Assembly (NCBI GenBank): GCA_965242865.1
Contig: CBDETK010000004.1
Coordinates: 1 to 28,433, forward strand
Length of the DNA: 28,433 nucleotides
Source of the DNA: Candidatus Latescibacterota bacterium
Lineage (GTDB): Bacteria; Latescibacterota; UBA2968; UBA8231
Reading direction: 5' to 3'
The first letter of the stretch is position 1. Every line of letters begins with the position of its first letter. The notes beneath the pieces are model-generated. The model did not search any database, was not told the origin of the DNA, and saw only the letters and a list, made by a program, of their open reading frames with translations. This document shows positions 5,737 to 21,421 of this stretch, piece after piece. A program made the translations under genes and the position numbers.

Positions 5737-8700
5737 CTAATCGACCACTTGGAACGTGAGCGGCATATAGATTGTTTCTGTGCCGTCCGACGCGATCAGC
5801 ACCGCCGGCCGGGGGTATAGGTCGGCGGTGCTTTGTGCGTTGGCCGACAACTGAAAGACGTTGCGCGCTAAGGTGACACTGCGGGCTATTTGCACCGGGC
5901 AGCCCGTCGTGTACGCAAAGCGTAGCGTGTAGGTGATCGTACGCCCCGCCACCGTGCTGGCATACGAGAAGTCCGCATTAGCGGTCTGTCGTTGCGTTCC
6001 GCGTGTCCCCTCATTGAACACCACAAAGTTGCGCGTCCCTTTCTTGATGGGATAGAAGGTCTGCGCGGGGATGCCCGAGGCGTTCGGTAGCTCATACGCC
6101 CACGTCAGGTTATTGGCGGCGGCCGTGGACGGCTGCACAAACGTCTTGAGGGTGCTTAGCTTGACGAAGCGGTTGGGGTCGCCGCTGGTGCTCTCATCGC
6201 TGACGACCATGCGGTCATCATCGTGCAGGGTCGTTAGCTCGGTGGTGACGTCATCGTGCAGGTCGAACGGGTCGGCGGTGGGTGTGCTACCCGTGCCAAT
6301 GAACGCCTTGAGCGTTGCCAGCGTAACATACCGGGTAGGGTCGCCGCTGGCCGACTCGTCGCTCACCACCATGCGGTCGTCGTTGTGTAAGGTGGTTAGT
6401 TGCGTCGTAACGTCGTCATGCAGGTCAAAGGCGTACCGATTATCAAGGGCCTGCAAGGTGATAAAGCGATTGGGCTGGTTGGCCGCCGACACGTCGGCCA
6501 CCACGAACTTGTCGAGCGGGTCTAAGCCCGAGCCGACCAACTGGGTGGGTACATCGATGTTGAGATGGAACCCCGGAACGTTCGCCCACTGACCTGTGTT
6601 GTTGACATACTGGAGCCTGCGGGACCTACTGCTATAGAAGGCATTGCCTTGTGTTCGAAAAAGCAAGTAACTCGCGAGAGAACCAACCGCCACATAGCGG
6701 TTGGGGTCACCTGATACGGACTCGTCACTAATAAGCATCCGATCCTCAGCATGTAAGGATGAGATAGCCGTGGTTACATCGTCATGCAAGTCAAACGAAC
6801 CGCCGCCACTGCTTAGGCCCGCTGTGAAGAACGTCTTGAGGGTGCTGAGGGTGACGTAGCGGTTCGGGTCGCCCGACGCCCCCTCGTCGCTAACCAACAT
6901 CCTATCGTCGTTATGCAGGGACGGAATGACCGTGGTAACGTCATCATGCAGGTCAAAATTCTTTAGCCCCGCCGTTATGAACGTCTTGAGGGTGCTGAGG
7001 GTGACGTAGCGGTTCGGGTCGCGGCTGGCCGACTCATCGCTTACAACCATGCGGTCGTCGTTGTGCAAGGTGGTTAGTTGCGTAGTAACGTCATCATGCA
7101 GGTCAAACGAGAAGAATAACTTGAGGGCGCCTAACGCGACATAGCGGTTCGGGTCGCCCACGAGCGACTCATCGCTAATCAACATCCTATCATCATTGTG
7201 CAGGGCCTGAATGACCGTGGTAACATCATCGTGCAAATCAAAATTGCCGCCGCCACTACTTAACCCCGCCGTGAAGAATGTCTTGAGGCTTGCCAACGTG
7301 ACATAGCGGTTCGGGTCGCCGCTTTCCGACTCATCGCTAATCAGCATCCGATCCTCATCGGCCAACGCCGCCGCCACCGTACTCACATCATCATGCAGGT
7401 CAAACGGGTCCGCCACAAACGTCTTGAGGGTTGCCAGCGTGACGTAGCGGTTCGGATCGCCACTAACTGATTCGTCGCTGATTAACATCCGGTCGCTGTT
7501 GTTCAGCGTTGTTAGTTGCGTAGTAACGTCATCATGCAGGTCAAACGCGAAGAACGGCTTGAGGCTTGCCAACGTGACATAGCGGTTCGGGTCGCCGCTT
7601 TCTGACTCATCGCTAATCAGCATCCGATCCTCATCGGCCAACGCCGCCGCGACCGTACTCACATCATCATGTAGGTCAAACGTCTCCACCGCCGGGACCG
7701 CCACATCCTCCCAACTATCTCCATCGTAGTATTCAAGATTGGACGGCGACGTGTTATCGTAGCGTACGTCATTCGCCGCCACGGGCAACTCAGTAACTGC
7801 CACATCCTCCCATTCGGCCATCGCCGTATAGCGTTCCAACTTGGACGGGCTAGTACGCGCATAGCGTATGTCGCCAGCCCGTGGGTCGCGCACGGGCACG
7901 TTCTGCCAAGCCGTGCCACTCCAATACTCAAGGGATGTTTCGCTGGAGGAGTCATAGCGCACATCGCCGCCCCCCGTGGTAACATCCACTTCAATAGGTA
8001 GGCTTATGCTCTCGTTGCCGCTGGTCGCTATCCACGTGAACGACACCACTTGCTCTGTCGAGGGAGCAGGGGCATTGATGGTAACAGCACCCGTCATTAA
8101 GTCCACGTCTAACCACGTAGGGAGCTCCATCGTGCTATATGCAATAGCGGCCATATCCACGGTGGAGACCGCCACGGGCAACACCGGCGAGAGCGGTGCT
8201 GTGACGGGCCGCCCCGCCTCAGCACGAAAACGCCGCGCGCCCGCCGTAGCCCATGTAAGCGTCGCGGCCGGGGCAACGGTCACATCGTCAATAGCAACAT
8301 AGATAGGCAAGCATATCGCCTCGTCGCCGCTCGTGGCGATCCATACAAACGACTCCGGCCCTTCGGGCGCATCCGCGATAGCCGTTACAATGCGAGTGGT
8401 AAGGTCCACACTGAGCCAGCTTGGAACATCGACCGCTGTATAGACGATAGACGCGCCGCTGGTCGTAGAGGATGCTTGAGGTAACGTGGGCGTTACCGGG
8501 TCTAACACACGGCTGCCCTCAACAATATCAATACGACGGGTGCCGCCCGCTTGGAAGGTGAGCTCGGCAGCAGGAACCGTGCCGGTTATAATTACGGGAG
8601 AAGTGGTAAGCCGTATTAGATTATCAGTAATAATATGGCCGCTAAGTAAAAAATTGAGGAGATTATATGAACTGTCTCTTCCATACCAACCGACTGAATC

Positions 8701-11700
8701 GGTTGCGGTCCCTATATTTGTTTCACTTGATTGTCTTACTGGTAATGCTCGAAGTTGTGAAACATCCAGCAGTTTACCTTCACCGGCACGATTTACTGCA
8801 ACAGGTGCGACCACCCATCCATCGGCTGGTATCGTTTTTGAACTTAGAGTTTCAAACGCATTTACCCCCGACGTTAGTTTCAAGTCAACTGAATACACTT
8901 CAACCGTAACTTGTCCATCCCCATAAAAACTACTTAGGCTTAATTTACCAGAACTACTATTACGATAAAAGGAAAAAGTCTGATCCCCGCCGTTCAAGTT
9001 AATGGTCGCATTATAACTAAACGCATATTCATTGTCTTGAGGATTAGTAGGACGACGAGCCTGTAATAATATGTTGGAATTTGCTGGTATGGTAATATCA
9101 GTATTTAGAATACCATCATAAGGAACCGAAAGAGAAACTCCTCCAATACGAGTGATTGCACTTCCCCCGCTTGTAGCGGGCAACGCCAATGTATGAATAC
9201 GACAAGCCGTTCCACTTATAATTTTCCCCTCATTATTAACTGAAAAACTACCTTCTATTCGTTGCCGGAAAGAACTAATAGCATCTGTTCTAAACCCATT
9301 CGCTCGCACTTCTGCGGCCCTTGCCCAACGTTGCGAACCTTTCTTACGTGCTGTTGGAGCAAACTGAATCCATAACCACCCGGTGGACGGGATGGTAAAC
9401 GACGACATGCCACTGCCCGAATACGTCCCTAACTCAGTAAGGGTAAAGTCTGGCGGCACACTGGTAGTTGCCGCAATAGACAGACTAATCGTTTGACAGA
9501 TCGCCTCTTCGCCGCTCTTAGCGATCCACACAAACGAAGCAAACGTGCTGACACTGGGCGCGTTGGCATTCGCCGTGACCTGCCGGGTAGTCGTATTGAC
9601 ACTCAGATACGAAGGAACGCCGCTGGTCTCGTAGGTGATCGTGCCGCCGCCGGTCTTGATGGCTTGCGGCAACGTGGGCGTCGTGGGGTTAAGCGTTTGG
9701 GTGCTGGGCGTAACCCCTATCATCGTGTCGCCGCCCGACGCCCACGTAAGCGTTGCTTGCGCTTCGGCGCCCAGCATAGCAATCTCAACGGCTATGACTT
9801 GGCTAATGGTCTCGTTGCCGCTGGTCGCCTGCCAGATGAACGACGCCGGCCCCGTCGGCGCTACATCCGTGGCGGTGACAGCCCGTGTGTTTACATCGAC
9901 GCTAAGCCATGTAGGGACGTTCAACGCCGCATACACAATCGCCGCGCTATCGGCTTGCATCGCTTCGGGGAGCACGGGAGCCACCGGGTCTAAGACATTG
10001 CTTTCCTCCGTGGCCCCAATACTAAACGGCTCGGTATTGCTCCACGTTAGCTTAGACACGACACCCGCGGTATCGGCGGGCGTCGTCACCTCCACCGTGC
10101 TCGCCGGCACGGAGCCGGTCACGAGCGTCCCCGTGGGCAGCCACCACGCGGCCCTGATGCGTATCTTCGTCTCAGCGGGTAGGCTGTCCAGAAGGATGTC
10201 GTCGCCCACGTCAACGCTCTCGCGCCGCCCTAAGCGCGTATAGGTCTCGACCGCGCCGGGCAACGGTGCCGCGGTAAGCGTCCCCCACTCCAACGAGACC
10301 TGCGGAAAGACGGCGTTGGTTATGTTAACCGTCACGCGGTCATGCAACAGGTCCTTCGTGGTGATCGTGGGGGGTGCGGTCGCCTGCTCGGGCAACGGCG
10401 TCGTATCGATCTCGCCTAACGCCGTCGAGGCACCAAACAACGTATCGGGATCCTCGCGCAGATAGGCTTGAAGCGTAAGCTCTTTCGTTACATTCGTCCT
10501 GACCACCCTAAACCGCTCGGCCGCGATCCCTTGCTGTGGGTCGGTCAAGGTGACATAATCCCCGGGGCGCACCGTGAGAAGCGCCAGGTTATCGCGGGGG
10601 CGTAAGACGTACGTGCTGCCCCTAAAGAGGCGCAGGTGGCGCAGGGCCAGCGCGGTAAGGCGTTGCGCGGTGTGTGCATTAGACACCAACGAGACATCGG
10701 GCAGCCGCTTTTTTAGGCGCACGTTGCCATCATCGGTCAGCGCATCGCTATTCGTCAATTGGATGTCGTAGGGCTGATAGTTCGCTTGGGCGGCCTGCTC
10801 GATCTTACAGGCAACCACGTTGATACGCTCCTCCACCGGGGGAGCGACATAGAACGGATTGCTCTGAACAATATCATCCGCGCTGAGCACCCGTGCGCCC
10901 GACGTGTAGGCGCGCCCCGGCTCGTAATAGACCTTGTCGCCATGCTCGACGACCGCGCCCTGCCACGCAAAGTCTAACTCCTCCTCCACCGCCCGCGGGT
11001 CATCACTATACTGCACAATCCCCGACACCGGGTACTGGATCGTGCGCGGCACCAACGCCACCGTGACCGTGCCACCAATCTGCTGAATAATCTTTTGGTG
11101 ATCCGCCGCCGAGATCGTCCACGAGGCATAGCCCGTGTGCCAGGTGGGGTCGGTCTGCCCCGACAGGTCCGCCCGCCGCAACGTACTCGTCGGACGGCCC
11201 TCGCCGTCTATGTCATCGGGATGGAGCCAGACCACCCCGCCATTCGCCAGCGTTATTTTTACTGAAACGCTATGCGTCCGCAGCCAATTCCCGATAGGTT
11301 GGGTCAGCGTGACGGTATTCGCGGTCTGCGTAGCCGCCTCCACGTTGACCCGGGCGGTATGCACCGCCCCCGTAGCACTTATCTCTATGTTCGTCAGCAG
11401 ATGGCCCGACGCATAAGTGCGTTGCGCGTCCGTGCCCGTGGGTGAAAAAGTGCGCTCACTCCCCAACTGCGACACGGCGCAAGAAACCGACAGCACGTCC
11501 GCAAACTCGACCGACCGCGCGCATTCGGCTACTGCCGACGTGAACGCGGTGCTATCCAACGACGCATCCTCATCGCCAAACACGCGCTTGCGGTAGTCGT
11601 AGCGGACCACCGCCGCATTTTCGGAAAACGTGGGCGTCGTCTGTCCGGGCCAAGTCGTCTTCAGACCGCGCACGAGAAAACGGATGTTCGGTACAGAATC

Positions 11701-12315
11701 CTCGTTCTGCCAATAACGAATAGTGCGGAACGATTGACCCTGTAGGATGCGCTCCGCCCGTGCGCTGGTCAGCTTGACATGCACCCAGCTCCAATCTTGC
11801 AAGCGATGGCTGCGTGACCAGCCGCCCTTAGCCCACAGGCTGGCCCCCTGATTGCCATCCGCCAGAAAATACTCGCGCAACTCAATCCCGCCATTGAAGT
11901 CCAGTATATCCGTTTCACAGGTCAGCCTATCGCCGGTCTCGCCCGTGGGCGGGTCATGGCGGGTGAGCACCGCCGGGCGGTCGTTGATGTAAAGCCCTTC
12001 AATCGCCTCCATCGCGCCGCGACCCAGCACGTAGGCCAAATGCAAGTCCACCGGGCTTTCTGGGTCTTGCCACGCAAAGACCAAGTGACCGGGAACGTTT
12101 GCCCGCCCATAGACCAAGCGCGGCGTCAATGGGCCACTACTAGGTAACTGTAATTCGCGCTGTACGCGCTCGTCGTGCGCGGGGTTGCGGTTCAGCAGAT
12201 AGCCTACCGCACCCAAGCCCAACGCCGCGGTGACGCCCCAGGGACCGGAAAGCTGCCACGCCGCCAGTTCACCTCCGACGCTCGTAGCCAGTTTGAGAAA
12301 ATTTCTATCGGCCAT
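5737..12315 (-). CDS. Tail tip / host-specificity (lambda J-like) protein with Ig-like and repeated fibre domains, 2192 aa
   Basis: N-terminal 'PRLVYGRANVPG...LGRGAMEAIEGLYIND', 'PNIRFLVRG', 'FSENAAVVRYDY' and 'VRPGDYVTLTD' motifs are typical of siphophage tail-tip proteins. Lies downstream of the tape measure and distal tail genes. Confidence 0.88.
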   Translation of the reverse strand: MADRNFLKLATSVGGELAAWQLSGPWGVTAALGLGAVGYLLNRNPAHDERVQRELQLPSSGPLTPRLVYGRANVPGHLVFAWQDPESPVDLHLAYVLGRGAMEAIEGLYINDRPAVLTRHDPPTGETGDRLTCETDILDFNGGIELREYFLADGNQGASLWAKGGWSRSHRLQDWSWVHVKLTSARAERILQGQSFRTIRYWQNEDSVPNIRFLVRGLKTTWPGQTTPTFSENAAVVRYDYRKRVFGDEDASLDSTAFTSAVAECARSVEFADVLSVSCAVSQLGSERTFSPTGTDAQRTYASGHLLTNIEISATGAVHTARVNVEAATQTANTVTLTQPIGNWLRTHSVSVKITLANGGVVWLHPDDIDGEGRPTSTLRRADLSGQTDPTWHTGYASWTISAADHQKIIQQIGGTVTVALVPRTIQYPVSGIVQYSDDPRAVEEELDFAWQGAVVEHGDKVYYEPGRAYTSGARVLSADDIVQSNPFYVAPPVEERINVVACKIEQAAQANYQPYDIQLTNSDALTDDGNVRLKKRLPDVSLVSNAHTAQRLTALALRHLRLFRGSTYVLRPRDNLALLTVRPGDYVTLTDPQQGIAAERFRVVRTNVTKELTLQAYLREDPDTLFGASTALGEIDTTPLPEQATAPPTITTKDLLHDRVTVNITNAVFPQVSLEWGTLTAAPLPGAVETYTRLGRRESVDVGDDILLDSLPAETKIRIRAAWWLPTGTLVTGSVPASTVEVTTPADTAGVVSKLTWSNTEPFSIGATEESNVLDPVAPVLPEAMQADSAAIVYAALNVPTWLSVDVNTRAVTATDVAPTGPASFIWQATSGNETISQVIAVEIAMLGAEAQATLTWASGGDTMIGVTPSTQTLNPTTPTLPQAIKTGGGTITYETSGVPSYLSVNTTTRQVTANANAPSVSTFASFVWIAKSGEEAICQTISLSIAATTSVPPDFTLTELGTYSGSGMSSFTIPSTGWLWIQFAPTARKKGSQRWARAAEVRANGFRTDAISSFRQRIEGSFSVNNEGKIISGTACRIHTLALPATSGGSAITRIGGVSLSVPYDGILNTDITIPANSNILLQARRPTNPQDNEYAFSYNATINLNGGDQTFSFYRNSSSGKLSLSSFYGDGQVTVEVYSVDLKLTSGVNAFETLSSKTIPADGWVVAPVAVNRAGEGKLLDVSQLRALPVRQSSETNIGTATDSVGWYGRDSSYNLLNFLLSGHIITDNLIRLTTSPVIITGTVPAAELTFQAGGTRRIDIVEGSRVLDPVTPTLPQASSTTSGASIVYTAVDVPSWLSVDLTTRIVTAIADAPEGPESFVWIATSGDEAICLPIYVAIDDVTVAPAATLTWATAGARRFRAEAGRPVTAPLSPVLPVAVSTVDMAAIAYSTMELPTWLDVDLMTGAVTINAPAPSTEQVVSFTWIATSGNESISLPIEVDVTTGGGDVRYDSSSETSLEYWSGTAWQNVPVRDPRAGDIRYARTSPSKLERYTAMAEWEDVAVTELPVAANDVRYDNTSPSNLEYYDGDSWEDVAVPAVETFDLHDDVSTVAAALADEDRMLISDESESGDPNRYVTLASLKPFFAFDLHDDVTTQLTTLNNSDRMLISDESVSGDPNRYVTLATLKTFVADPFDLHDDVSTVAAALADEDRMLISDESESGDPNRYVTLASLKTFFTAGLSSGGGNFDLHDDVTTVIQALHNDDRMLISDESLVGDPNRYVALGALKLFFSFDLHDDVTTQLTTLHNDDRMVVSDESASRDPNRYVTLSTLKTFITAGLKNFDLHDDVTTVIPSLHNDDRMLVSDEGASGDPNRYVTLSTLKTFFTAGLSSGGGSFDLHDDVTTAISSLHAEDRMLISDESVSGDPNRYVAVGSLASYLLFRTQGNAFYSSRSRRLQYVNNTGQWANVPGFHLNIDVPTQLVGSGLDPLDKFVVADVSAANQPNRFITLQALDNRYAFDLHDDVTTQLTTLHNDDRMVVSDESASGDPTRYVTLATLKAFIGTGSTPTADPFDLHDDVTTELTTLHDDDRMVVSDESTSGDPNRFVKLSTLKTFVQPSTAAANNLTWAYELPNASGIPAQTFYPIKKGTRNFVVFNEGTRGTQRQTANADFSYASTVAGRTITYTLRFAYTTGCPVQIARSVTLARNVFQLSANAQSTADLYPRPAVLIASDGTETIYMPLTFQVVD
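6135..7680 (-). repeat. Intragenic ~43-aa repeats FDLHDDV...DRM..SDES.SGDPNRYV.L..LK (9 copies + 1 degenerate)
   Basis: Counted directly in the translation; near-identical DNA blocks are visible. Confidence 0.92.
7980..10050 (-). repeat. Four ~100-aa Ig-like repeats in two pairs flanking an AT-rich insert
   Basis: LT[WF]...P.LP.A...I.Y....P.[WY]L.V...T..VT....AP....F.W.A.SG.E.I repeated at ~9480-10050 (x2) and ~7980-8565 (x2). Confidence 0.8.
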
Positions 12316-13077: not shown

Positions 13078-13668
13078 TCAGACCGCCTCCTCAAAGGGGA
13101 TGACCCATGGCCCCCACCGGGTCGCGGTGCGCGGTAGGTCTAACGCCCTCGTATCCAAGCGCACGTCCATGGTCGTCGCCGGGGTGATCCCATCGCCCAC
13201 TTTTCCGACAAACACCGGCACCGGGTTCACTTGCGTCGCCGCGGGTTGCGCCCCAGATGCTTGTAACAAGCGGTCGCCCGCCGAGAAGAACTGGCCGTCT
13301 GCCAACGCAACAGCACGGGAGAGGGTTAGACGCCCGCTCTGAGCATCTATCGCACTAATGGTGACAGACGGCACAGGGTTTTCAATCGTCCACAGACCCG
13401 CCAACGGAAGCTCCACCGTCAGGTCACCGCCCCGCGTCTTACGCAGTAGCGCCGACAACTGGCTGGCCAACTGGTTCGCCTCCGATTCCTGCTGATGGGC
13501 AAAGCTCATCCATGTCACCTCGCCCCGCCACGCCCCCGGCGCATAGTAGGCAAAAGACTGTTGACCCGTGTATTCAGAGCGATGCGATTGCAGGCCGGGT
13601 TCCCACGGCAACAACGACACCGCCGTGATGCGGTTCGCCAACGCTTCGGGGATTTGTATATCGGCCAT
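13078..13668 (-). CDS. Distal tail protein-like (196 aa)
   Basis: Directly after the tape measure gene. 'SEYTGQQ......GAWRGEVT' and C-terminal 'IPFEEAV' pattern. Confidence 0.7.
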   Translation of the reverse strand: MADIQIPEALANRITAVSLLPWEPGLQSHRSEYTGQQSFAYYAPGAWRGEVTWMSFAHQQESEANQLASQLSALLRKTRGGDLTVELPLAGLWTIENPVPSVTISAIDAQSGRLTLSRAVALADGQFFSAGDRLLQASGAQPAATQVNPVPVFVGKVGDGITPATTMDVRLDTRALDLPRTATRWGPWVIPFEEAV

Positions 13669-16145
13669 TAGCGCCTCGTGTCGCGGGCTAACGAATCAGA
13701 AATATCGATCATGTTCGGCAATATCTTTTGGTTAAACTCACGTATCAACCCCTCCCCATCCCCGAAGCCTTCTATATGGAACGTGGGTTGGAAGTTTATT
13801 GTGGGCTTCCCTGCCGCCGCTTCCCGTATAAGCTCTTCGGCCAAGCCCGGCTGCACCGACCCGATCCCCGTTGTGGGCGCACCTAATGCCGGCAGACCGC
13901 GCAACTGATTAAGGAGATCGAGGGAACGATCCGCCGCCGACGTCTCAAAGAGGAACGGCGTCGTCCGCGGGTTGAAGATACGCGCCATCAGCGGCTCAAT
14001 AATCTTTAGGCGGATGACCAACAACGCCATCTGGCGAAGCATCTGGCGCATCGCCTCCACCACCGAACCCGGCCCTATGATAGCACTGGCTATCCCCTCA
14101 AACGCCCCCGTAAGGGTGCTACGCACCCGGGCACCCGCCTCGGTCATACGCGCTAACTGTTCATTCGTCGCTTGCAGTGGGCCAGTCAAAAGCCCTAAGC
14201 GCAAGAGCGGGGCAATGTCGGGTCCGGTGAACGCCTCCGCACTCACCCGCTGGCTCAGGCGCACCGCCCGCGCCATGAGGCGCGTACTCTTATCCACCTC
14301 CTCGCCCGTCTTACCAATCGTACCCGATAACAAGCCCCAGGCCCGACGCAGATCCTCCAGCGTCGCCTGCCACGTCAGACTCAACACATTATTGACGCGC
14401 TCGGACTCGGCTTCGGTCACCCCAAAATAGTCCAGCGTCAGGTCGCGGGTGCTTCGAAAAAATTGGGCGATCTGAGCCACATTCGCTTCCGCCTGTTTGC
14501 CGGTAACTCGTAATCCCGTTTCTAATTGCCCGGTAAACTCGTCAATCACCGTACTCAAACTCTCCCCGCGCAACCCCGCCGCAATCGCATCCACCAACGC
14601 GTTCCCCAACGAGTAGAACGAGCCGACAATAAGCGTCACCGCCGCATGGATGCTGTTGACTATGAAACTGGGTATCGTAGCAATAGCCGCCACCACATTA
14701 GCCACAAACCGAAGACCCAAGTTACGACCCAGTTCGCCCCACGTGACGTTTTGCTCCCGCAAGATACGCGACAGATTGAGGAACGCATCGATCAAAAGAA
14801 TGACACCCTCAATAATAGCACCCACGAGCAGAGCACGAAAAGCAGCTTTTGCGGCGATACGCACCAGACCTAACGCCCGCGTCAAGAGGGACAACTGACG
14901 ACGCATGGCGACCAAGCCGCGACGCACCCGCAACACCGCCGCCGCACCAAACGCCAACAGCAACGCACGGCCCGTCGCCGTGATCACACCCCGGAAGCGA
15001 TCCAGATTGTCCGTCAATTGGTTGAAGAAGCCCGCAATGGACGAAAGGAAGTTGGTGAGCTCGGTGGTGACGCCGAACATCCTATCGACCGCCTGTACAA
15101 AGCCAAAGGCGGCCGACGCGGCTAAGCGCAGTTGCCCTATAAGCGTAGCATTGAGTAGGTCCGCCATCCGTTGGGCGGCCCCCGTGCCACCACGAATAGC
15201 CGTCGTCAAATCCTCCACCGAACGGACGTTGCGAATGAGTATCTCGGCAACGGATGCGTTTTCTCTCCCAAAGATATTGAAGATTTCGGCGGAATCGATC
15301 CCCGACCGCCGCAGGTTCTCCAACACGGGTATCAAGCCCAACGACGCAACACTCACGTCATCCAACGAGAGGCCCACCGACGCGAGCGACTGCGCCGCCG
15401 CGCCCGACGGGGCCGCCAGCGACGCCAAGAACCCGCGGAACCCGCGACCGGCGCGGGTGGCGAAAATACCGGCGTTACCTAAAGCACCAATCGCCGCCTC
15501 CGTGGTTTCAACATCGATACCAAATTGCCGAGCGATTGGCCCCACGTAGCTAAGGGCTTGAGTAAGTTCCTCAAAGTTGGTGTTGGCGCTATTCGTGGTT
15601 GTTACGAGTGTGTCCGTTATGCGCTCGGCATCGGCCACCGACAGACCAAACTGATTGATTATGTTGGTGAGTTGATTGCCTACCTCGGCGGTGGTTGCGC
15701 CGCTGGCTGCCGCAAGGTTCAATGTAGCCGGGAGGAGTGAAAATTGCTCGTTGACCGTGTTGCCCGCCCGGGCCAACTCAACCATCGCTTGGGCGGCCTC
15801 TGCAGCCGAAAAACGGGTATTTCTTCCTAAATCACGGGCCAGTTGGTCCAAACGCTGAAAGTCATTGCCGGTGGCATTCGTAATGCCCCGGACTAACGCC
15901 ATACTCTGCTCGTACTCAGCCAGTTGGCGGATGACGCCGCCCAAGCTGGAGGCCGCGCCGAAGGCAGCTAACGCCGCCGCCGCCCGCCGCGCCACCGAGT
16001 TGAAGCCCGAGAGTTCATTCCGTAGGGAACGCACTCTGCGCTGGTGACGGCGTAAGGCCACTTCGGCCGCACGGGTGCTGCGTAACAACTCTCTGGTTCT
16101 ACCAGAGAAGTTGACGAACAAAGTACCGAGCCTCACGCTTGCCAT
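13668..16145 (-). CDS. Tail tape measure protein (TP901-family core)
   Basis: 'YEQSMALVRGITNAT...ARDLGRNTRFSAAEAAQAMVELARAG...LNLAAASG...ANTNFEELTQALSYVGP' is the characteristic core. Probable start is ATG 16145. Confidence 0.95.
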   Translation of the reverse strand: MASVRLGTLFVNFSGRTRELLRSTRAAEVALRRHQRRVRSLRNELSGFNSVARRAAAALAAFGAASSLGGVIRQLAEYEQSMALVRGITNATGNDFQRLDQLARDLGRNTRFSAAEAAQAMVELARAGNTVNEQFSLLPATLNLAAASGATTAEVGNQLTNIINQFGLSVADAERITDTLVTTTNSANTNFEELTQALSYVGPIARQFGIDVETTEAAIGALGNAGIFATRAGRGFRGFLASLAAPSGAAAQSLASVGLSLDDVSVASLGLIPVLENLRRSGIDSAEIFNIFGRENASVAEILIRNVRSVEDLTTAIRGGTGAAQRMADLLNATLIGQLRLAASAAFGFVQAVDRMFGVTTELTNFLSSIAGFFNQLTDNLDRFRGVITATGRALLLAFGAAAVLRVRRGLVAMRRQLSLLTRALGLVRIAAKAAFRALLVGAIIEGVILLIDAFLNLSRILREQNVTWGELGRNLGLRFVANVVAAIATIPSFIVNSIHAAVTLIVGSFYSLGNALVDAIAAGLRGESLSTVIDEFTGQLETGLRVTGKQAEANVAQIAQFFRSTRDLTLDYFGVTEAESERVNNVLSLTWQATLEDLRRAWGLLSGTIGKTGEEVDKSTRLMARAVRLSQRVSAEAFTGPDIAPLLRLGLLTGPLQATNEQLARMTEAGARVRSTLTGAFEGIASAIIGPGSVVEAMRQMLRQMALLVIRLKIIEPLMARIFNPRTTPFLFETSAADRSLDLLNQLRGLPALGAPTTGIGSVQPGLAEELIREAAAGKPTINFQPTFHIEGFGDGEGLIREFNQKILPNMIDISDSLARDTRR

Positions 16146-16173
16146 TTGACACTCCCCCAAAAAGGGCTATACT
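16146..16173 (+). promoter_or_regulatory. Sigma70-like promoter for HNH cassette 1
   Basis: TTGACA (16146-16151), 16-bp spacer, TATACT (16168-16173). Confidence 0.7.
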
Positions 16174-16179
16174 TTAGTT

Positions 16180-16283
16180 GCCGCTTCTTGCGGCTCCTTT
16201 TATTGCGTCGCGGGGTTGGGTTCGCTACCCGCCCCGCATCTACTTCGCAATAAAAGGCTCACACGCAATAAAAGGAAAATCCC
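16180..16283 (+). promoter_or_regulatory. Structured 5' leader of HNH gene 1
   Basis: 5' hairpin, anti-SD segment TCCTTTTATTGCGT, TCGCT-loop hairpin + ATCTA, two copies of CGCAATAAAAGG; same architecture as 18363-18467. Confidence 0.7.
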
Positions 16284-16877
16284 GTGATTAAGCAATGTAC
16301 CGAATGTCCAACCACGTTTGATACGAAAGAGCGTGGTCCAAGTGCAAAAACTTGCTCGCCAGAGTGTGCAAAAGCGGCTCAGCGAAAGGCGGATCGAAAG
16401 TATAAACAATCGCCCAAAGGGATCGCGACGCGGCGAAAGTATCAGCGAGAGTATTATCAATCGCCCCAAGGGATCGCGACGCGGCGAAAGCATAACCAAT
16501 CGGAAAAACGCAAAGCGTATATGCAAAAGTATCAACAATCGGAAAAATACAAAGCGTATGAACAATCGGAAAAACGCAAAGCGTCGAAACGAAAGGCTTT
16601 TGCTAAACACTACCACCTGCTCGGCGGGCATGGGTATCGCCGGGCTTTACCCGAACTCATTGTTGAGCAAAACGGCATCTGCAACATCTGCAAAGACCCG
16701 TTGCCCGAAGATCATTCAGAGATAGACGTTGACCACGTTCAGCCCGCATCCAAAGGCGGTTCTAACGACATCAACAACTTGGCAGCTACCTGTAAGACGT
16801 GTAACCGAAAAAAGAAAGACAAGTGGGACGGCACGAAGAAGGGCGAGAAGCCGGCACAAATGGGATTATTCGAGTAG
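16284..16877 (+). CDS. HNH endonuclease 1 (antisense insertion in the tail operon)
   Basis: CNIC...DVDHVQPASKGGSNDINNLAATCKTCNRKK HNH/zinc motif; N-terminal CxxC...CxxxC. Confidence 0.93.
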   Translation: MIKQCTECPTTFDTKERGPSAKTCSPECAKAAQRKADRKYKQSPKGIATRRKYQREYYQSPQGIATRRKHNQSEKRKAYMQKYQQSEKYKAYEQSEKRKASKRKAFAKHYHLLGGHGYRRALPELIVEQNGICNICKDPLPEDHSEIDVDHVQPASKGGSNDINNLAATCKTCNRKKKDKWDGTKKGEKPAQMGLFE

Positions 16878-17240
16878 CCCTTCCTCCCGCATTTTTTTTG
16901 TGCGGTCCCACGCCGCTTCGAGTGCCTCTTTTTTCATTTGGCGCTCAGCCTTTTCCCGCGCCGCCGCTTCCGCATCCCACTGGTCGAACCGCTTGAGCCG
17001 TTCTTCGCGCGAAAGGAATTGCGGAGCCAAGTCATATACATCCAACCGCCGGGCTTCTTTTCCTGTGTTCGCGGTATAGAAGAACTGTGTGAGTTGGGCC
17101 AGCAGGGACTGTACCGGATAATCGCCCCACGGATACCGATCAAAATGGAGCTCCCACGCTAACCGCTCGCGGCGCGACAGAGCCAACACGTCCCGCAGGG
17201 GTTGGCCCGTCGCCCGGGCGATTAGGAACGGGTAGGGTCG
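16866..17240 (-). CDS. Tail assembly chaperone downstream frame (lambda gpT-like), probably made by -1 frameshift
   Basis: Protein-like frame (PFLIARATGQPLRDVLALSRRERLAWELHF...PWG) with no obvious start of its own. It overlaps the end of 17222-17599 in the -1 frame and lies upstream of the tape measure gene. Confidence 0.7.
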   Translation of the reverse strand, partial: RPYPFLIARATGQPLRDVLALSRRERLAWELHFDRYPWGDYPVQSLLAQLTQFFYTANTGKEARRLDVYDLAPQFLSREERLKRFDQWDAEAAAREKAERQMKKEALEAAWDRTKKMREEGLLE

Positions 17241-17599
17241 GCCTCCACGGCGTCCTCCAGCGACGCCACGTTCAGCCCACACACCTCCATGCAACGAACC
17301 GCCAGCGGCGAGCCGACGCCCCCCGACCGAGTAAGCACCCGCCAAGCCATATCATCGGACGTCAACTCCGGCAAGCAGCAGCGCAACGCTTTCAGTTGCA
17401 AGGTCAAGCCCCGTTCCACTTCCTCCGCACGGCCGCTCGGCTTATTCTCTTCGGCCCATAATGCCAACTGGGTCACCTGTGCGCGGGATGGCTCCGTTAA
17501 GTGAAACGACCCCGCACCGCTCTCCACCACGAGAAACTCGTCGGAAAGCAGTTCGTCCAGAACCGCTTGGTTCTTGGATGGTGCTTTGGCTTTAGCCAT
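17222..17599 (-). CDS. Tail assembly chaperone (lambda gpG-like)
   Basis: Size, synteny, GGAGAGG RBS and overlapping downstream frame. Confidence 0.7.
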   Translation of the reverse strand: MAKAKAPSKNQAVLDELLSDEFLVVESGAGSFHLTEPSRAQVTQLALWAEENKPSGRAEEVERGLTLQLKALRCCLPELTSDDMAWRVLTRSGGVGSPLAVRCMEVCGLNVASLEDAVEADPTRS

Positions 17600-17867
17600 T
17601 TTCCTCTCCATTCTTCAAGTGAGACCCTTCAAACGTACCGCCTTCACCGCGTCCGACGACAATGCCTTTGGCTTCGGTGAGCACCCCGCCGGCGACCAAG
17701 AGAATAATATCGCGCACGATCTGCGGGGGGCTTTCAGACTTCCAGATCGCCATGCACACCCCGAACACGGCCACCGCCACAAAAAGGAACAACGCCCCCA
17801 TGACAACATGGGCGGCTACTTTTTCAACGCAATCGCGTTTGAAGCCATTGGAACTATGGTTGTCCAT
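17592..17867 (-). CDS. Small membrane protein, holin candidate (91 aa)
   Basis: Two hydrophobic segments (VVMGALFLFVAVAVFGVCMAIW; IILLVAGGVL) and a charged C-terminus. Confidence 0.55.
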   Translation of the reverse strand: MDNHSSNGFKRDCVEKVAAHVVMGALFLFVAVAVFGVCMAIWKSESPPQIVRDIILLVAGGVLTEAKGIVVGRGEGGTFEGSHLKNGEENG

Positions 17868-18074
17868 CTACCCCCCGGCCGGCGGCTCCTGCTCACTACG
17901 ATAGATGCACTCCCGCACCCACTGAACCTGCCCATTCGGGCTTCGCGGAGCCACCTGCACCCAAACAGTCAAGTGGTTATCATACGCCCCCGGCGACTCA
18001 TATTCATACCCCGCCCCCTTCTGACTCAACCGAACAATACGATCAAACTCGGCCGCATTCAAACTGATGGACAT
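17868..18074 (-). CDS. Hypothetical protein (68 aa)
   Basis: GAGGAGG RBS upstream; stop abuts the next ATG. Confidence 0.65.
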   Translation of the reverse strand: MSISLNAAEFDRIVRLSQKGAGYEYESPGAYDNHLTVWVQVAPRSPNGQVQWVRECIYRSEQEPPAGG

Positions 18075-18204
18075 ACTCGTTCCTCCTCAAGTGAAGTAAA
18101 GCAGTTCGTTGGCAAATAATAATGCGGCGACAGGGCCAACCAACCCGCCGCCGCGAACTAAACACATAGCAACTCTCTGTTGAGAGAAAGGATTGCTCTA
18201 CGCA

Positions 18205-18358
18205 CTAATATACGAAGAAACCACGCAAAACGCACAAAAAAAATCAAAGCATCTCGTTGGCCATGATAATCAGGGCCAGCATCACCGCACAAAATAGAAC
18301 GGTTCCCGTTTCCATACGTAGGCTCGCTTTTTTTATTCCTAATTCCTTCGTATATTAC
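18205..18358. promoter_or_regulatory. Divergent promoter pair with the CTTCGTATATTA motif
   Basis: - strand copy at 18205-18217 and + strand copy at 18346-18358, each preceded by a T-tract. Confidence 0.65.
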
Positions 18359-18362
18359 TAAT

Positions 18363-18467
18363 GTCGCATCATGCGACGCCTTTCGTCAAGGCTCGCGGGT
18401 TGGGGGTCGCTCCCCCGCCCGCATCTATGGCCCAACGAAAGGACACGCTTGACGAAAGGTCTAACCC
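18363..18467 (+). promoter_or_regulatory. Structured 5' leader of HNH gene 2
   Basis: 5' hairpin GTCGCA/TGCGAC, anti-SD CCTTTCGTCAAG, TCGCT-loop hairpin + ATCTA, two ACGAAAGG copies. Confidence 0.7.
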
Positions 18468-19046
18468 ATGATCAAACAATGCAGTGAATGCCCGAATACA
18501 GTCTCGCACTTTAACGCCAAGACGTGCTCTACGGGGTGTTCCAAGAAACGAAAAAAACGAATAGCCGCGGCGTACTACCAAAACAATAAAGCCGAAATAT
18601 CCCAAAAGAGTAAGCAGCATTATGCCGCTAACCGAAAAGCCATGATTGAGCGAGTTATGCGCCACTACTACGCCAATCCGCAGGCAGGGAAAGAGCGAGC
18701 TAAGAAGTGGAACAGAGCACATCCAGATGTCATAAATAGGCTTACCAGGGCACGATATAAACGGCTGGGAGGAAGGGGCTATCGTCGTCATCTTCCTGCA
18801 CTGCTCGTCAAGTATGGTTATATCTGCCAAATTAAAGGCTGCGAACTGCCGAGAGACCATTCCAAGATTGACGTGGACCACATCGTCCCTGTGGATGCCT
18901 GTATTGCTATGGGCTGGACTAAAAAGCAAATAAATGATCCGTACAATCTTCAACCGGCTTGTCCTTCTTGCAACTACGCCAAAGGGAACCAATGGGATGG
19001 CACCATGCCGGGCGAACCACCGGCTCAAATGGACTTGTTTGAGTAG
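18468..19046 (+). CDS. HNH endonuclease 2 (paralogue of 16284-16877)
   Basis: CQIKGC...IDVDHIVP...NDPYNLQPACPSCNYAK; shares MIKQC.ECP start and WDGT..GE.PAQM.LFE end with HNH 1. Confidence 0.92.
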   Translation: MIKQCSECPNTVSHFNAKTCSTGCSKKRKKRIAAAYYQNNKAEISQKSKQHYAANRKAMIERVMRHYYANPQAGKERAKKWNRAHPDVINRLTRARYKRLGGRGYRRHLPALLVKYGYICQIKGCELPRDHSKIDVDHIVPVDACIAMGWTKKQINDPYNLQPACPSCNYAKGNQWDGTMPGEPPAQMDLFE

Positions 19047-19051
19047 CGTTT

Positions 19052-21421
19052 TCAATTTACGGTCCAAACCTCAAGCGGCGAGATCGTCCGCACCAAATCG
19101 CAGGTAATGATCAACTCGCCAGTCGCCTGCCGCCCCACGCGCAGCGTATCCACGCGACCCGCGGCCGCATTTTGCACCTCGACCTCAATAGCCCCCGTGG
19201 TGGAAACCGCATTACTGCTATCGCCTATCCGCGAAGTCACCAGCCGCCCCAACTCCGAGCCGCTGATCAGCACATCGCCGCAGTGAAAACCGCCCAAGAC
19301 GAGCCGAAATAGCTTGTCGGTATAATCACTCGGCAGTGCGTAGCCCGTATCGGCCCATTGATTGAGGCTGGTGATAGCCACGTTCTGCGAGTGCTGCTTG
19401 ACCACCCCCGGCGGGATCGTCGGCGCGTTGTTGATGTCATCATAATCAACCGGACGCTTGGCGACCGGGATAGCATCCTCATTGCCTACCAGCGTCCACG
19501 GCTCGACGTTGGGCGTCAACCGCATCCACCCCGTGGGCGTCCGCATCGTCGCCGGCTGGTATTCCCAGATATTGCGAAAATCGGCGGTGCTACTATACTC
19601 CCTTTGAAACCCTCTATGATACTGAAGGATCGCGGCGATCTCGCGGCGCGTCGCCCGCGGCTGGTGCGAGTAGTCGAGCGACGCAATCGTGCCCGTCGCG
19701 CCCGACACCGACTGGGTATTCCGCGAGAAAGACAGTTGCCCCAAGTTCGTCCACGTCTGATCGCCCACCCGACGGACACGTACATAGAACGTAGGGTTAA
19801 CCGCCTGCGTGACGGCCATCGTGCGGATCGCAACGGTAAGGCGCTGATAGCGCGGGTCGCCGCCGTCCACGAAACCCAACGACCAAGCGATGTCAAAGGG
19901 GGCACCGTCCGCTGCGGTATTGCCGGCGATCGTACCATTGCCGCGCCAGTCCGCGTCTTTGGAAGCCCCGTCGAGGATGACCGTGCCGCGACCGCGGTTT
20001 TCAACCGCCATTTCTTCGGTGGTCAGACCAATGATATAAGGAGCACCCGTGCTCGGCTCAACCAGTTGTATCGTCCCCTCCGCAACGCCCGTGGTGGCTG
20101 TGGGCGCATCCACGCTGTGAGGCAATATGACAAGCCCCCCGGCATTGCCGTGCGTCACAGCGCGTATGGCGGCCTCTAAGCCGCTAATAAAGCGGGCGGC
20201 GATGTCGATATGCTCCAGTTGATCGGGGGCATCCCATTGCGCTTGCAATTTGGATGCCGCGGGGATGTCCGCGATCGGCAAGTTGTAGTACCAATAATGG
20301 TCGTCGTCACCCAAGTAGGTTGCGCCCGTAGTGGCAATAACGAGAGCCTCCGCCTCGTCGCCCGTGACCACCCGAAAGAGCGCCAAGTCGTCGGTCGAAG
20401 GCTGTATTTCGTAGAGCGTCTTGGGAACGCGGAAAGCAATGTTCTTGCCCGTCTCACGCGCCGCCACCGTCCGCGTGGCGGTGTACGTGGCCGCCTTCGC
20501 GGTCGCCTCCGTATAGGCATCGTCCGCTATGGGCGACAACCACAGGCCATCCTCGGCGCGCCACGAGCCATCGACCACATCGTCGTTGAGCCGCTCAACA
20601 TTAGGCAGGGCCGCCTTAATCGCCGCGACCGCATCGGCGGCCGTGAACGGCGGCGACGCCGCCGGAATATCCGGGCGGTTGTCTATATCCGTGTTCCAAT
20701 CCCAATTCTGACCGCCCAACTCAGCCTTGTCTTTGACGTGGCTTCGTATCAGCGCGACCACCGCGGCGGCGTCTAACGTGGCCCCATTACCGCCCCCGCC
20801 CTGCCCCGTGGGCAAGTGGGAGGCAAGGAAAACCGTATTGGGACCGGGCGACCGAGTGCCGAACAGGAACGCATACGCCGACTCCACATAATCACGAGCC
20901 TGATCGTTGGCCTCTTGGCGCACCGTCGCAAACGTTAAAATATCATCGGTGAACGCCACATCCGACGGCAAGTTCTCGCGCCGTATCGGCACGATATGGC
21001 CGTCGTCATACCGCTGCGCCCAGTCCTGCACATGCCGCAAAAACGCTTGAAACACCGGGCTGGTGGAGCTATGCGGGGGAGCCAATACGTTATCGGTGGT
21101 TTCGTGCAAATGGATGTCGTCCAGAAAACGAATGGTTCGGCTCCATACCGCCACCTCGCCCACGTTCGGCTCGGTGTTCATAATGGTCACCCGATAGTAA
21201 TGACCCGCGGGCGTGGTTTCCAGAAAGATGTCGAGCATCCCCTGCGCGTTGGTACGCCCCGAAAAGCTCGTGGGGACCACCACGCCCGTCGCGGCGTTCA
21301 CCCACCGCGCCGTCTCGCCGGTACGACCATACTGATCGACCGCCTCAACCCGCACCAACTGGTACGGCAACACGCCCAAGTCAAGGTTTAACGTGCTCAC
21401 ATGTAACGTATGGAGTGCCAT
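19052..21421 (-). CDS. Putative tail fibre / minor virion protein (789 aa)
   Basis: Long A/T/G/D-rich ORF in the structural operon with Gly linkers; no recognised family. Confidence 0.6.
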   Translation of the reverse strand: MALHTLHVSTLNLDLGVLPYQLVRVEAVDQYGRTGETARWVNAATGVVVPTSFSGRTNAQGMLDIFLETTPAGHYYRVTIMNTEPNVGEVAVWSRTIRFLDDIHLHETTDNVLAPPHSSTSPVFQAFLRHVQDWAQRYDDGHIVPIRRENLPSDVAFTDDILTFATVRQEANDQARDYVESAYAFLFGTRSPGPNTVFLASHLPTGQGGGGNGATLDAAAVVALIRSHVKDKAELGGQNWDWNTDIDNRPDIPAASPPFTAADAVAAIKAALPNVERLNDDVVDGSWRAEDGLWLSPIADDAYTEATAKAATYTATRTVAARETGKNIAFRVPKTLYEIQPSTDDLALFRVVTGDEAEALVIATTGATYLGDDDHYWYYNLPIADIPAASKLQAQWDAPDQLEHIDIAARFISGLEAAIRAVTHGNAGGLVILPHSVDAPTATTGVAEGTIQLVEPSTGAPYIIGLTTEEMAVENRGRGTVILDGASKDADWRGNGTIAGNTAADGAPFDIAWSLGFVDGGDPRYQRLTVAIRTMAVTQAVNPTFYVRVRRVGDQTWTNLGQLSFSRNTQSVSGATGTIASLDYSHQPRATRREIAAILQYHRGFQREYSSTADFRNIWEYQPATMRTPTGWMRLTPNVEPWTLVGNEDAIPVAKRPVDYDDINNAPTIPPGVVKQHSQNVAITSLNQWADTGYALPSDYTDKLFRLVLGGFHCGDVLISGSELGRLVTSRIGDSSNAVSTTGAIEVEVQNAAAGRVDTLRVGRQATGELIITCDLVRTISPLEVWTVN

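What the first reader, a model, noticed from the sequence alone, without database searches (positions are those of the whole stretch)
16180..18467. Shared covarying RNA leader upstream of both HNH genes (anti-SD switch with two alternative partners)
Seen in both 16180-16283 and 18363-18467 despite divergent sequence: (1) a small 5' hairpin; (2) an anti-SD segment (TCCTTTTATTGCGT / CCTTTCGTCAAG); (3) a bulged hairpin GCGGG(G)-TT-GGG(T/GG)-TCGCT-(A/CC)CCC-G-(C)CCCGC followed by invariant ATCTA; (4) two tandem complements of segment 2 (16246-16257 and 16263-16276; 18435-18442 and 18448-18459), the second holding the RBS. Inference: a two-state translational switch restraining a toxic nuclease, or a structured RNA/DNA element tied to the mobility of this HNH family. 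I do not recognise it as a known motif.
Basis: partly seen in the sequence, partly recalled or inferred. Interest (0 to 1): 0.75.

Follow-up and report, generated by a model that had tools for sequence, protein, structure and literature searches.

The report
Structured leader throttling phage HNH genes
Two diverged copies of a phage HNH homing-endonuclease gene each carry the same folded 105-base RNA leader that hides the ribosome-binding site, most likely to keep synthesis of the nuclease low; the principle is known, but this layout has no match in the RNA family library.

Summary
The window is one whole 28.4-kb contig carrying a phage structural module on the - strand. Two HNH genes (36% identical proteins) sit on the + strand, each behind a -10 box and a ~105-nt leader.

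Both leaders fold alike:
- P1, a hairpin at the predicted +1.
- P2, an anti-SD strand paired with the ribosome-binding (SD) segment.
- P3, an enclosed 11-bp hairpin with one bulged U, loop UCGCU, followed by AUCUA.
- A second, upstream copy of the SD segment.

All 29 pairs form in both leaders, and 10 changed on both sides. The leaders are 68% identical, against 30% at third codon positions, so selection keeps them. Rfam has no match.

Best reading: a cis-acting translational throttle. The SD is locked in P2. The upstream copy is an alternative partner for the anti-SD. It forms first during transcription and cuts the predicted cost of freeing the SD from about 13-14 to 4-6 kcal/mol.

The closest analogues are the RBS hairpins of T-even homing endonucleases and the MS2 maturation-gene leader. 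No further DNA copy was found. DNA of the nearest protein relatives could not be reached, so the evidence rests on two copies in one phage.

The parts
16146..16173 (+). Promoter-like site of HNH1 (TTGACA, 16-nt spacer, TATACT). The -10 ends 6 nt before the first G of P1.
   Evidence: 11 of 12 matches; spacing read.
16180..16194 (+). Leader 1 P1: 5'-terminal hairpin, 5 bp, at the predicted +1.
   Evidence: helix 1, one compensated pair.
16195..16208 (+). Leader 1 anti-SD strand (5' strand of P2).
   Evidence: I1 14 nt, I2 12 nt, both 100% complementary.
16210..16237 (+). Leader 1 P3: 11-bp hairpin, one bulged U, loop UCGCU.
   Evidence: (helix 3).
16238..16242 (+). Invariant AUCUA directly 3' of P3.
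16246..16257 (+). Leader 1 proximal (decoy) copy of the SD segment; can form 12 bp with the anti-SD.
16263..16276 (+). Leader 1 distal copy holding the SD (GG at 16274-16275, 8 nt before GTG); 3' strand of P2.
   Evidence: GG unpaired probability 0.00.
16284..16877 (+). HNH1 gene, GTG start, 197 aa.
   Evidence: N-terminus MIKQC is shared with HNH2 and with P0006 and P0010.
18351..18356 (+). -10-like TATATT of HNH2. It ends 6 nt before P1, as in leader 1. No good -35.
   Evidence: Read. Not reported by the scan.
18363..18377 (+). Leader 2 P1: 5'-terminal hairpin, 6 bp.
18378..18390 (+). Leader 2 anti-SD strand.
   Evidence: (I2 12 nt, 100%).
18395..18422 (+). Leader 2 P3 hairpin, same geometry and same loop UCGCU.
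18423..18427 (+). Invariant AUCUA.
18429..18442 (+). Leader 2 proximal (decoy) partner: 18435-18442 pairs with 18379-18386, and 18429-18432 pairs with 18390-18393 (8+4 bp).
   Evidence: D2.
18448..18460 (+). Leader 2 distal copy holding the SD (GG at 18458-18459, 8 nt before ATG).
18468..19046 (+). HNH2 gene, ATG start, 192 aa.

Best explanation
Each HNH gene is a self-contained cassette of promoter, ~105-nt 5' leader and ORF, inserted antisense into the phage's late structural operon. The leader is a cis-acting RNA that throttles translation of the nuclease.

Proposed sequence of events:
1. Transcription starts at the first G of P1, so the mRNA begins with a hairpin and has no free 5' tail.
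2. The strand right after P1 (the anti-SD) pairs over 13-14 bp with the SD-containing segment 8 nt before the start codon (helix P2). P2 encloses the GC-rich hairpin P3.
3. This is the ground state, and in it the SD is buried.
4. An upstream tandem copy of the SD segment (the decoy) is transcribed first and pairs with the anti-SD for about 12 bp.
5. A newly made transcript therefore has a free SD for a short time, until the distal copy displaces the decoy. The decoy also lowers the price a ribosome pays to keep the SD open.
6. The net effect is low, time-limited synthesis of the endonuclease.

Shown here: conservation of the structure, compensatory changes, location, and predicted energetics.

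Inferred: that it is RNA on the + strand, the transcription start, the kinetic window, and any effect on translation.

The loop UCGCU, the U bulge and AUCUA stay invariant although neutral sites are saturated. That suggests an extra sequence-specific contact, with a protein or a nuclease. Its nature is unknown.
For: Structure and compensation:
- 29 pairs, 58 of 58 cells paired, 10 pairs changed on both sides (P1 1, P2 6, P3 3). Slid controls give 0-1.

Selection:
- The leaders are 68% identical over aligned columns.
- The codon-aligned CDS is 49% identical and third codon positions 30%.
- The flanking 123-128 nt align at 40-47%, which is noise level.

Folding:
- z = -6.1 and -4.1.
- The SD GG has unpaired probability 0.00-0.01 in both leaders.

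Geometry shared by both leaders:
- The SD lies 8 nt before the start codon.
- The -10 box ends 6 nt before P1.

Strand:
- Three G-U cells on the + strand would be A-C on the - strand.
- The + strand z-scores are better than those of the - strand, -5.1 and -3.4.

Decoy:
- Columns 24-77 and 25-76 are compensated.
- Both leaders keep about 12 bp of anti-SD:proximal pairing.
- In prefix folding of leader 1 the proximal helix is the MFE at 76-94 nt and the distal helix from 100 nt.
- Energies for leader 1 / leader 2: OFF -50.1 / -51.0 kcal/mol; distal copy forced free -46.0 / -45.1; anti-SD forced free -36.2 / -38.2.
- findpath barriers: ON to OFF 10.1 / 11.0 kcal/mol; OFF to ON 15.3 / 16.9.

Precedent:
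- RBS-sequestering hairpins control I-TevI, I-TevII, I-TevIII, segB and Aeh1 mobE (PMC2988022, passages of section 12).
- The MS2 maturation-gene leader has a 5' hairpin, then an upstream complementary sequence that pairs with the SD, plus a metastable trap (PMC4615214, passages).

Hint from other genomes:
- In P0008 and P0009, whose called ORFs run upstream through their leaders, the 12 codons before the start allow an 18-nt tandem repeat. The maximum possible identity is 14 of 18 in each. Random 12-mers reach that with P = 0.004 and 0.006, and an offset of 6 codons is the best of offsets 4-8.
Against: - There are only two sequences, both from one contig, so R-scape-type statistics are not possible.
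- No further copy was found with model R1 or R2: not in the own genome, 150 related genomes (R1 only), 83 viral and GTDB loci or 80 metagenome loci. Those loci encode only distant HNH relatives.
- Ten distant family members show no comparably structured leader (z -0.2 to -2.85).
- At equilibrium the decoy pairing is negligible: 0.3 expected pairs against 13.2-13.4.
- Three decoy pairs are broken in leader 2.
- Covariation of the decoy with the anti-SD could come from homogenisation of the two tandem copies rather than from selection for pairing.
- Leader 2 has no recognisable -35, and no transcription start is mapped.
- The peptide-level repeat in P0008/P0009 is an upper bound, not observed DNA. 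One other position in the P0008 extension scores 15.
- No experiment shows any effect on translation.
Confidence: 0.6

Rival explanations
1. A protein-operated translational operator. A protein, either the HNH enzyme itself or another phage or host factor, binds the invariant P3 loop, bulge and AUCUA and/or the two tandem SD-like sites. This sets whether the SD is open. The RNA-only timer is secondary. This can coexist with the best explanation.
For: The loop UCGCU, the single bulged U and AUCUA are invariant, while third codon positions are only 30% identical. The two SD-like sites lie 17-18 nt apart in both leaders. The T4 review mentions an I-TevI operator site (PMC2988022, passage of section 14).
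Against: No P3-like hairpin occurs elsewhere in the window or the genome. The next best R2 scores are 12 bits in the window and 16.8 bits in the genome, against 57 for the two leaders. No CsrA family match was found in the assembly, which is 93.6% complete and whose link to the phage may be by binning only. No binding was tested.
Confidence: 0.2
2. A DNA-level operator. The one inverted and two direct 12-14-bp copies are binding sites on double-stranded DNA for the cassette's own HNH protein (Zn-ribbon plus basic repeats). That would give transcriptional autorepression or a roadblock. The sites differ between the cassettes because the proteins differ.
For: Three copies of a cassette-specific 12-mer occur in each leader. 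The N-terminal halves of the two proteins are the most diverged part; codons 25-44 are 35% identical at the nucleotide level.
Against: This does not explain P1 or P3 with their four compensated pairs. It does not explain the G-U polarity or the SD lying inside the distal copy at a fixed 8-nt distance. The 12-mers match nothing else in the window at 2 mismatches or fewer, apart from three scattered 2-mismatch hits for leader 2.
Confidence: 0.07
3. The functional RNA is the - strand. The reverse complement lies in the late polycistronic mRNA, just upstream of the tape-measure RBS for leader 1. It could serve as a processing or stabilising element there.
For: The - strand also folds well (z = -5.1 and -3.4). 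Leader 1 ends about 20 nt from the tape-measure start region.
Against: Three pairs become A-C mismatches on the - strand, and its z-scores are weaker. The element is inherited with the HNH gene, not with a particular late gene. The - strand neighbours of the two copies are unrelated. SD position and spacing are conserved only in the + strand reading.
Confidence: 0.06
4. The leader is an RNA cofactor or guide of the HNH nuclease. The analogy is with structured RNAs encoded just upstream of some RNA-guided HNH-containing nucleases (recalled, not tested by any search).
For: Only the position directly upstream of an HNH ORF and the strong conservation.
Against: No Rfam match of any kind. The variable 12-mers pair with each other, not with any other site in the window. 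The proteins are about 195 aa and have only an HNH domain by Pfam.
Confidence: 0.02

Closest known systems
RBS-sequestering hairpins of T-even phage homing endonuclease genes (I-TevI, I-TevII, I-TevIII, segB, Aeh1 mobE); PMC2988022, passages of section 12
   Same: A phage homing-endonuclease gene whose SD is buried in a stable RNA helix. The presumed purpose is to limit or time synthesis of the nuclease.
   Different: In those cases the inhibitory strand is present only on long early or middle read-through transcripts. A late promoter inside the structure makes open transcripts. Here the genes are antisense to their neighbours. The only promoter-like site lies upstream of the whole structure, so every own transcript should carry the anti-SD. 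Relief would have to come from the decoy copy or from a factor. There is no sequence relationship.
5' UTR of the Levivirus (MS2) maturation gene, control by delayed RNA folding; PMC4615214, passages
   Same: A 5' hairpin is followed immediately by an upstream complementary sequence that pairs at long range with the SD. This helix encloses further hairpins. A structure that forms earlier delays closure, so only young RNA is translated.
   Different: The MS2 trap is a small metastable hairpin, not a tandem copy of the SD segment. MS2 RNA is a replicating genome, not a mRNA made from DNA. There is no Rfam or sequence match. The kinetics here are only computed.
Metastable SD-sequestering structures in type I toxin mRNAs (aapA3 of Helicobacter pylori); PMC6733600, abstract only
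   Same: Successive RNA folds around the SD restrain a potentially harmful gene.
   Different: In those mRNAs the transient hairpins block translation during transcription. Here the transient fold would permit it. No antisense antitoxin RNA is evident here.

Membership tests
Any Rfam 15 family | Match to a covariance model at the gathering score. | tested here: not met
   0 matches in the whole window. With E up to 10 over 15900-18700 there were only two weak hits: PrrB_RsmZ on the - strand (18 bits against a gathering score of 44) and Erse.
T-even homing-endonuclease RBS hairpin (I-TevI / mobE type) | The SD of the endonuclease gene is paired in a stable helix. | tested here: met
   P2 has 13-14 bp. 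The SD GG has unpaired probability 0.00-0.01. This is a prediction only.
T-even homing-endonuclease RBS hairpin (I-TevI / mobE type) | A promoter inside or after the inhibitory strand, giving transcripts that cannot form the helix. | tested here: inconclusive
   The sigma-70-type scan finds only the site upstream of P1. Phage-specific promoter types are not covered by that scan.
T-even homing-endonuclease RBS hairpin (I-TevI / mobE type) | The gene lies on long co-directional polycistronic transcripts that supply the inhibitory strand. | tested here: not met
   Both HNH genes are on the + strand, between - strand structural genes.
Levivirus maturation-gene leader (delayed folding) | A 5' hairpin directly followed by an upstream complementary sequence that pairs with the SD at long range. 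| tested here: met
   P1 ends at 16194 / 18377 and the anti-SD starts at the next base. P2 spans 54-57 nt.
Levivirus maturation-gene leader (delayed folding) | An earlier-forming structure that delays closure, with translation only from young RNA. | tested here: inconclusive
   In silico only: prefix folding and ON-to-OFF barriers of 10-11 kcal/mol. No kinetic experiment was possible.
Levivirus maturation-gene leader (delayed folding) | Common descent or sequence family. | tested here: not met
   No Rfam hit. The element lies on a DNA phage contig with tail genes.
tRNA or tRNA-like element | Cloverleaf or T-arm recognised by a tRNA finder. | tested here: not met
   ARAGORN finds 0 genes in the window.
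CsrA/RsmA-controlled leader | The host encodes CsrA, and there are at least two GGA-type sites, one at the SD (motif recalled). | tested here: not met
   PF02599 was not found in the 93.6%-complete assembly, while the control genomes were detected. Each leader has one GGA and one GGC or GGU site.
HNH endonuclease (protein) | Pfam HNH domain above the curated cut-off. | tested here: met
   PF01844 scores 46.9 and 29.3 bits against a cut-off of 21.4.

The most novel reading that the evidence does not exclude
The leader is a portable, self-timing expression limiter that travels with a homing-endonuclease gene. A tandem decoy copy of the SD segment gives each transcript a translation window of seconds to tens of seconds. 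The invariant P3 loop, bulge and AUCUA form a specific docking site through which the nuclease, or an RNase, feeds back on its own synthesis. That would make it a new class of cis-regulatory RNA dedicated to mobile nuclease genes.
Probability: 0.2. Interest if true: 0.6.

Novelty: new variant of a known kind. Interest (0 to 1): 0.45.

Why it matters
Free-standing homing endonucleases have to be expressed without harming their phage. How they are restrained is known mainly for T4-like phages. In those, control depends on where the gene sits within long host-phage transcripts.

Here the control element appears to be built into the mobile cassette itself: promoter, 5' hairpin, anti-SD, decoy and SD. 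The gene could then bring its own throttle to any insertion site, even in antisense orientation.

If the decoy acts as a kinetic timer, it would be a compact natural example of strand-displacement control of translation. It would also be a useful part for synthetic biology.

The finding also gives a well-defined candidate RNA motif with two covariance models. These can be tested as soon as DNA of the related HNH genes is available.

Tried and rejected
Searches for more copies or for close homologues with DNA:
- Single-protein scans of viral contigs found none and one distant locus.
- Alignment A4 was too diverse for the tool.
- A5 found nothing in metagenome or viral contigs. In GTDB contigs it found only two distant Streptomyces loci.
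- A6 returned 79 viral and 80 metagenome loci, all distant HNH genes. None of their ORFs of 80 aa or more carries the family's C-terminal WDGT signature.
- The C-terminal alignment A8 found nothing in viral contigs. In the 168 genomes of the phylum it matched only the own genome, so 0 of the other 167.
- DNA pattern scans of viral contigs gave 0 hits and one chance hit inside a coding-like stretch, not matched by R1.
- The phage record collection has no DNA match. By protein it has only Vibrio phage proteins at 25-29% identity.
- The closest proteins, P0006-P0018, come from ENA/Logan assemblies only. The look-up tool for encoding contigs is closed, so their upstream DNA could not be read.

Sequencing runs:
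- No RNA holder is listed.
- Contigs of 4 runs laid on 14500-20500 show no listed variant inside either leader. 167 further differences were not shown. This gave no natural variation with which to test the pairs.

Peptide-level test for an anti-SD in the ORF extensions of P0008 and P0009: not informative (59 of 300 and 110 of 300 shuffles as good).

Architecture test on distant homologues: of 11 hand-picked family members with a complete N-terminus, 1 (L063) was dropped for having less than 80 nt upstream. The other 10 have no strong leader fold.

Ideas considered and rejected:
- Intrinsic terminator. P1 of leader 1 matches the scan, but leader 2 does not, and P3 has no T run.
- tRNA-like element.
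- A conserved leader peptide. Leader 2 has a 36-codon frame ending in ATGA at the HNH2 start. Leader 1 has no matching start and has a stop in the decoy (read).

Earlier findings of this scan: nothing on this element.
Full report
CONTEXT

The window is the whole contig C4 (28,433 bp) of a 6.0-Mb assembly of 13 contigs.

The - strand carries a phage structural module:
- major head protein, 27154-28404
- head-tail adaptor and neck proteins
- a 789-aa protein, 19052-21421
- two overlapping small ORFs, 17222-17611 and 16866-17345; the latter has a weak 'tail protein' match
- a tape-measure protein, 13668-16160 (best match 2.8e-69)
- a 2192-aa ORF

Two genes lie on the opposite strand: 16284-16877 (GTG start, 197 aa) and 18468-19046 (ATG start, 192 aa). 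Both have a Pfam HNH domain above the cut-off. They are 36% identical over their length (E = 6e-36). GC content falls to 0.49-0.52 around them, against about 0.60 elsewhere. They look like free-standing homing-endonuclease genes inserted antisense into a late operon.

THE OBSERVATION

In register, both leaders have:
- P1, a hairpin of 5-6 bp (16180-16194; 18363-18377).
- Directly after it, an anti-SD strand (16195-16208; 18378-18390).
- P3 (16210-16237; 18395-18422). Without gaps it aligns as an 11-bp stem with one bulged U and the loop UCGCU.
- The invariant AUCUA.
- A proximal copy of the complement of the anti-SD (16246-16257; 18435-18442).
- 17-18 nt further on, a distal copy (16263-16276; 18448-18460). 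Its GG lies 8 nt before the start codon in both.

The - 10-like hexamers (TATACT at 16168-16173, TATATT at 18351-18356) both end 6 nt before the first G of P1. For leader 1 the scan reports TTGACA, a 16-nt spacer and TATACT, 11 of 12 matches. Leader 2 has no good -35. The transcript therefore probably starts with P1. This is inferred, not mapped.

IS IT MORE THAN CHANCE, AND IS IT SELECTED?

- The + strand RNAs fold to -50.1 and -50.8 kcal/mol (z = -6.1 and -4.1; 0 of 200 shuffles as good in each case).
- On the alignment, all 29 pairs of P1, P2 and P3 are standard pairs in both sequences (58 of 58 cells).
- Ten pairs differ on both sides: 1 in P1, 6 in P2, 3 in P3. No pair is changed on one side only. 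Sliding the 3' partners by 1-3 columns gives 0-1 such pairs and 45-53% pairing.
- The two cassettes are old paralogues. Third codon positions are 30% identical, the codon-aligned CDS is 49% identical, and the flanks align at noise level (40-47%). The leader is 68% identical.
- The leader is thus better conserved than the protein-coding sequence, and every stem substitution is compensated. This shows purifying selection on a structure.
- Against that saturated background, the invariant loop UCGCU, the bulged U and AUCUA also look selected as sequence.

WHICH STRAND, AND RNA OR DNA?

- Three pair cells are G-U on the + strand and would be A-C on the - strand.
- The - strand folds less well (z = -5.1 and -3.4).
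- The element keeps a fixed distance to the promoter and to the start codon of the HNH gene, and it is inherited with that gene. The - strand neighbours of the two copies are unrelated.
- A DNA operator reading would explain the three 12-mers. It would not explain P1 and P3, or the SD lying inside the distal copy.

I therefore read it as a + strand mRNA leader.

HOW IT PROBABLY WORKS

In the predicted ground state the anti-SD pairs with the distal copy (P2). The SD GG has an unpaired probability of 0.00-0.01.

Constrained folding gives these energies for leader 1 / leader 2:
- ground state: -50.1 / -51.0 kcal/mol
- distal copy held single-stranded, as a bound ribosome would hold it: -46.0 / -45.1, because the anti-SD then takes the proximal copy (12 bp in leader 1, 8+4 bp in leader 2)
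- anti-SD with no partner at all: -36.2 / -38.2

The decoy therefore lowers the cost of exposing the SD from about 13-14 to about 4-6 kcal/mol, by similar amounts in both leaders.

Folding of growing prefixes shows the proximal helix as the MFE from 76 to 94 nt in leader 1, replaced by P2 once 100 nt are made. Direct-path estimates give ON-to-OFF barriers of 10.1 / 11.0 kcal/mol and OFF-to-ON barriers of 15.3 / 16.9. With a commonly assumed attempt rate of about 10^6 per second (my assumption, an order of magnitude only), the open state would last seconds to tens of seconds, and closure would be practically irreversible.

At equilibrium the decoy pairing is negligible (0.3 expected pairs against 13.2-13.4). 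The 'switch' is therefore kinetic or factor-driven, not a balanced two-state one.

My best explanation is a cis-acting throttle in which:
- P1 caps the 5' end.
- P2 locks the SD.
- P3 nucleates the fold and holds the strands together.
- The decoy gives young transcripts a short translation window and tunes the lock.

What recognises the invariant loop, bulge and AUCUA is open. No second P3-like hairpin exists in the window or the genome. No CsrA was found in the assembly. That assembly may be a bin, since the runs holding it show strain variants, so the link between host and phage is uncertain.

DISTRIBUTION

- Rfam has nothing at gathering scores. At E up to 10 it has only two weak, unrelated hits.
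- Model R1 (whole leader) and model R2 (P3 plus AUCUA) find only the two leaders. The searches covered the own genome, 150 related genomes (R1 only), 83 viral and GTDB loci and 80 metagenome loci. All of those loci encode only distant HNH relatives.
- Ten such relatives with complete N-termini have ordinary upstream regions (z from -0.2 to -2.85). Eleven were chosen by hand and one was dropped for a short flank.
- The profile search found 2326 proteins at E up to 0.001, but only 7 at E up to 1e-30.
- The close ones share the N-terminal MIKQC..EC motif and the C-terminal WDGT...LF signature. They come from ENA/Logan assemblies that none of the DNA collections hold.

One indirect hint exists. 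P0008 and P0009 were called with ORFs that run 53 and 51 codons upstream of the conserved start. In both, the last 12 codons allow an 18-nt tandem repeat, with 14 of 18 positions possibly identical. Random 12-mers reach this with P = 0.004 and 0.006, and an offset of 6 codons is the best of offsets 4-8. This is an upper bound from peptides, not DNA. A matching test for an anti-SD was uninformative.

COMPARISON WITH WHAT IS KNOWN

- It works like the RBS-sequestering hairpins of T-even homing endonucleases (PMC2988022, passages of section 12). It fails two of their defining features. The gene is not on co-directional read-through transcripts, and no internal promoter is seen.
- Its architecture is closest to the MS2 maturation-gene leader (PMC4615214, passages). 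That leader has a 5' hairpin, then a complementary sequence that closes on the SD at long range, and an earlier-forming trap. Here the trap would be a tandem SD copy, and there is no homology.
- Metastable SD hairpins in type I toxin mRNAs (PMC6733600, abstract) are a looser parallel.

I file it as a new variant of a known kind of control, and as a new RNA motif not present in Rfam 15. I ran two literature searches, neither aimed at this motif. They do not establish that it is absent from print.

VERDICT

This is a real, selected, structured leader. SD sequestration is well supported by comparative and thermodynamic evidence. The decoy/timer mechanism is plausible but only computed. Protein recognition of P3 is a guess. 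The evidence base is two copies in one phage.

Interest 0.45. Confidence in the stated explanation 0.6.

Noticed in passing
window 18318-19396: Contigs in runs X1 and X2 join 18318 to 19396. This skips 1077 bases that hold the HNH2 promoter region, leader, gene and the last ~344 nt of the convergent 789-aa gene. Only 30 letters lie on the shorter side, and the letters between are unknown. It may be an HNH2-less or replaced allele in the same samples. The left border would lie 33 nt before the -10 box.
   Followed up: partly
window 17636-17864: A second joint in X1 and X2 skips 227 bases inside the 91-aa - strand ORF (17592-17867). Again only 30 letters lie on the shorter side.
   Followed up: no
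window 16284-16520: The public protein for HNH1 (P0001, 118 aa) starts at the internal Met80. The GTG start and the N-terminal Zn-ribbon part, which is conserved with HNH2 and with P0006 and P0010, seem to have been missed by the gene caller.
   Followed up: partly
window 16866-17611 (- strand): Two ORFs (17222-17611 and 16866-17345) overlap by 124 nt just upstream of the tape-measure gene. This is the usual place of tail-assembly-chaperone genes with a programmed frameshift. Only a weak 'tail protein' match was seen (E = 6.8e-4).
   Followed up: no
window 16866-16877 and 19046-19052: Both HNH genes end tail-to-tail against - strand genes with no room for a terminator: a 12-nt overlap for HNH1 and a 5-nt gap for HNH2. 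HNH and late transcripts must therefore be mutually antisense.
   Followed up: no
window 18361-18471: In leader 2 an ATG two bases before P1 opens a 36-codon frame that ends in TGA, overlapping the HNH2 ATG (ATGA). Leader 1 has no equivalent start and has a stop in the decoy copy, so the frame is not conserved.
   Followed up: partly
proteins P0006 and P0010: Two close relatives of HNH2 (54% and 46% identity) are each reported on a longest contig of the same length, 11931 bp. There may be another phage that also carries two paralogous cassettes.
   Followed up: no
window 5737-12315 (- strand): A 2192-aa ORF downstream of the tape-measure gene has no PHROG match at E up to 0.001.
   Followed up: no
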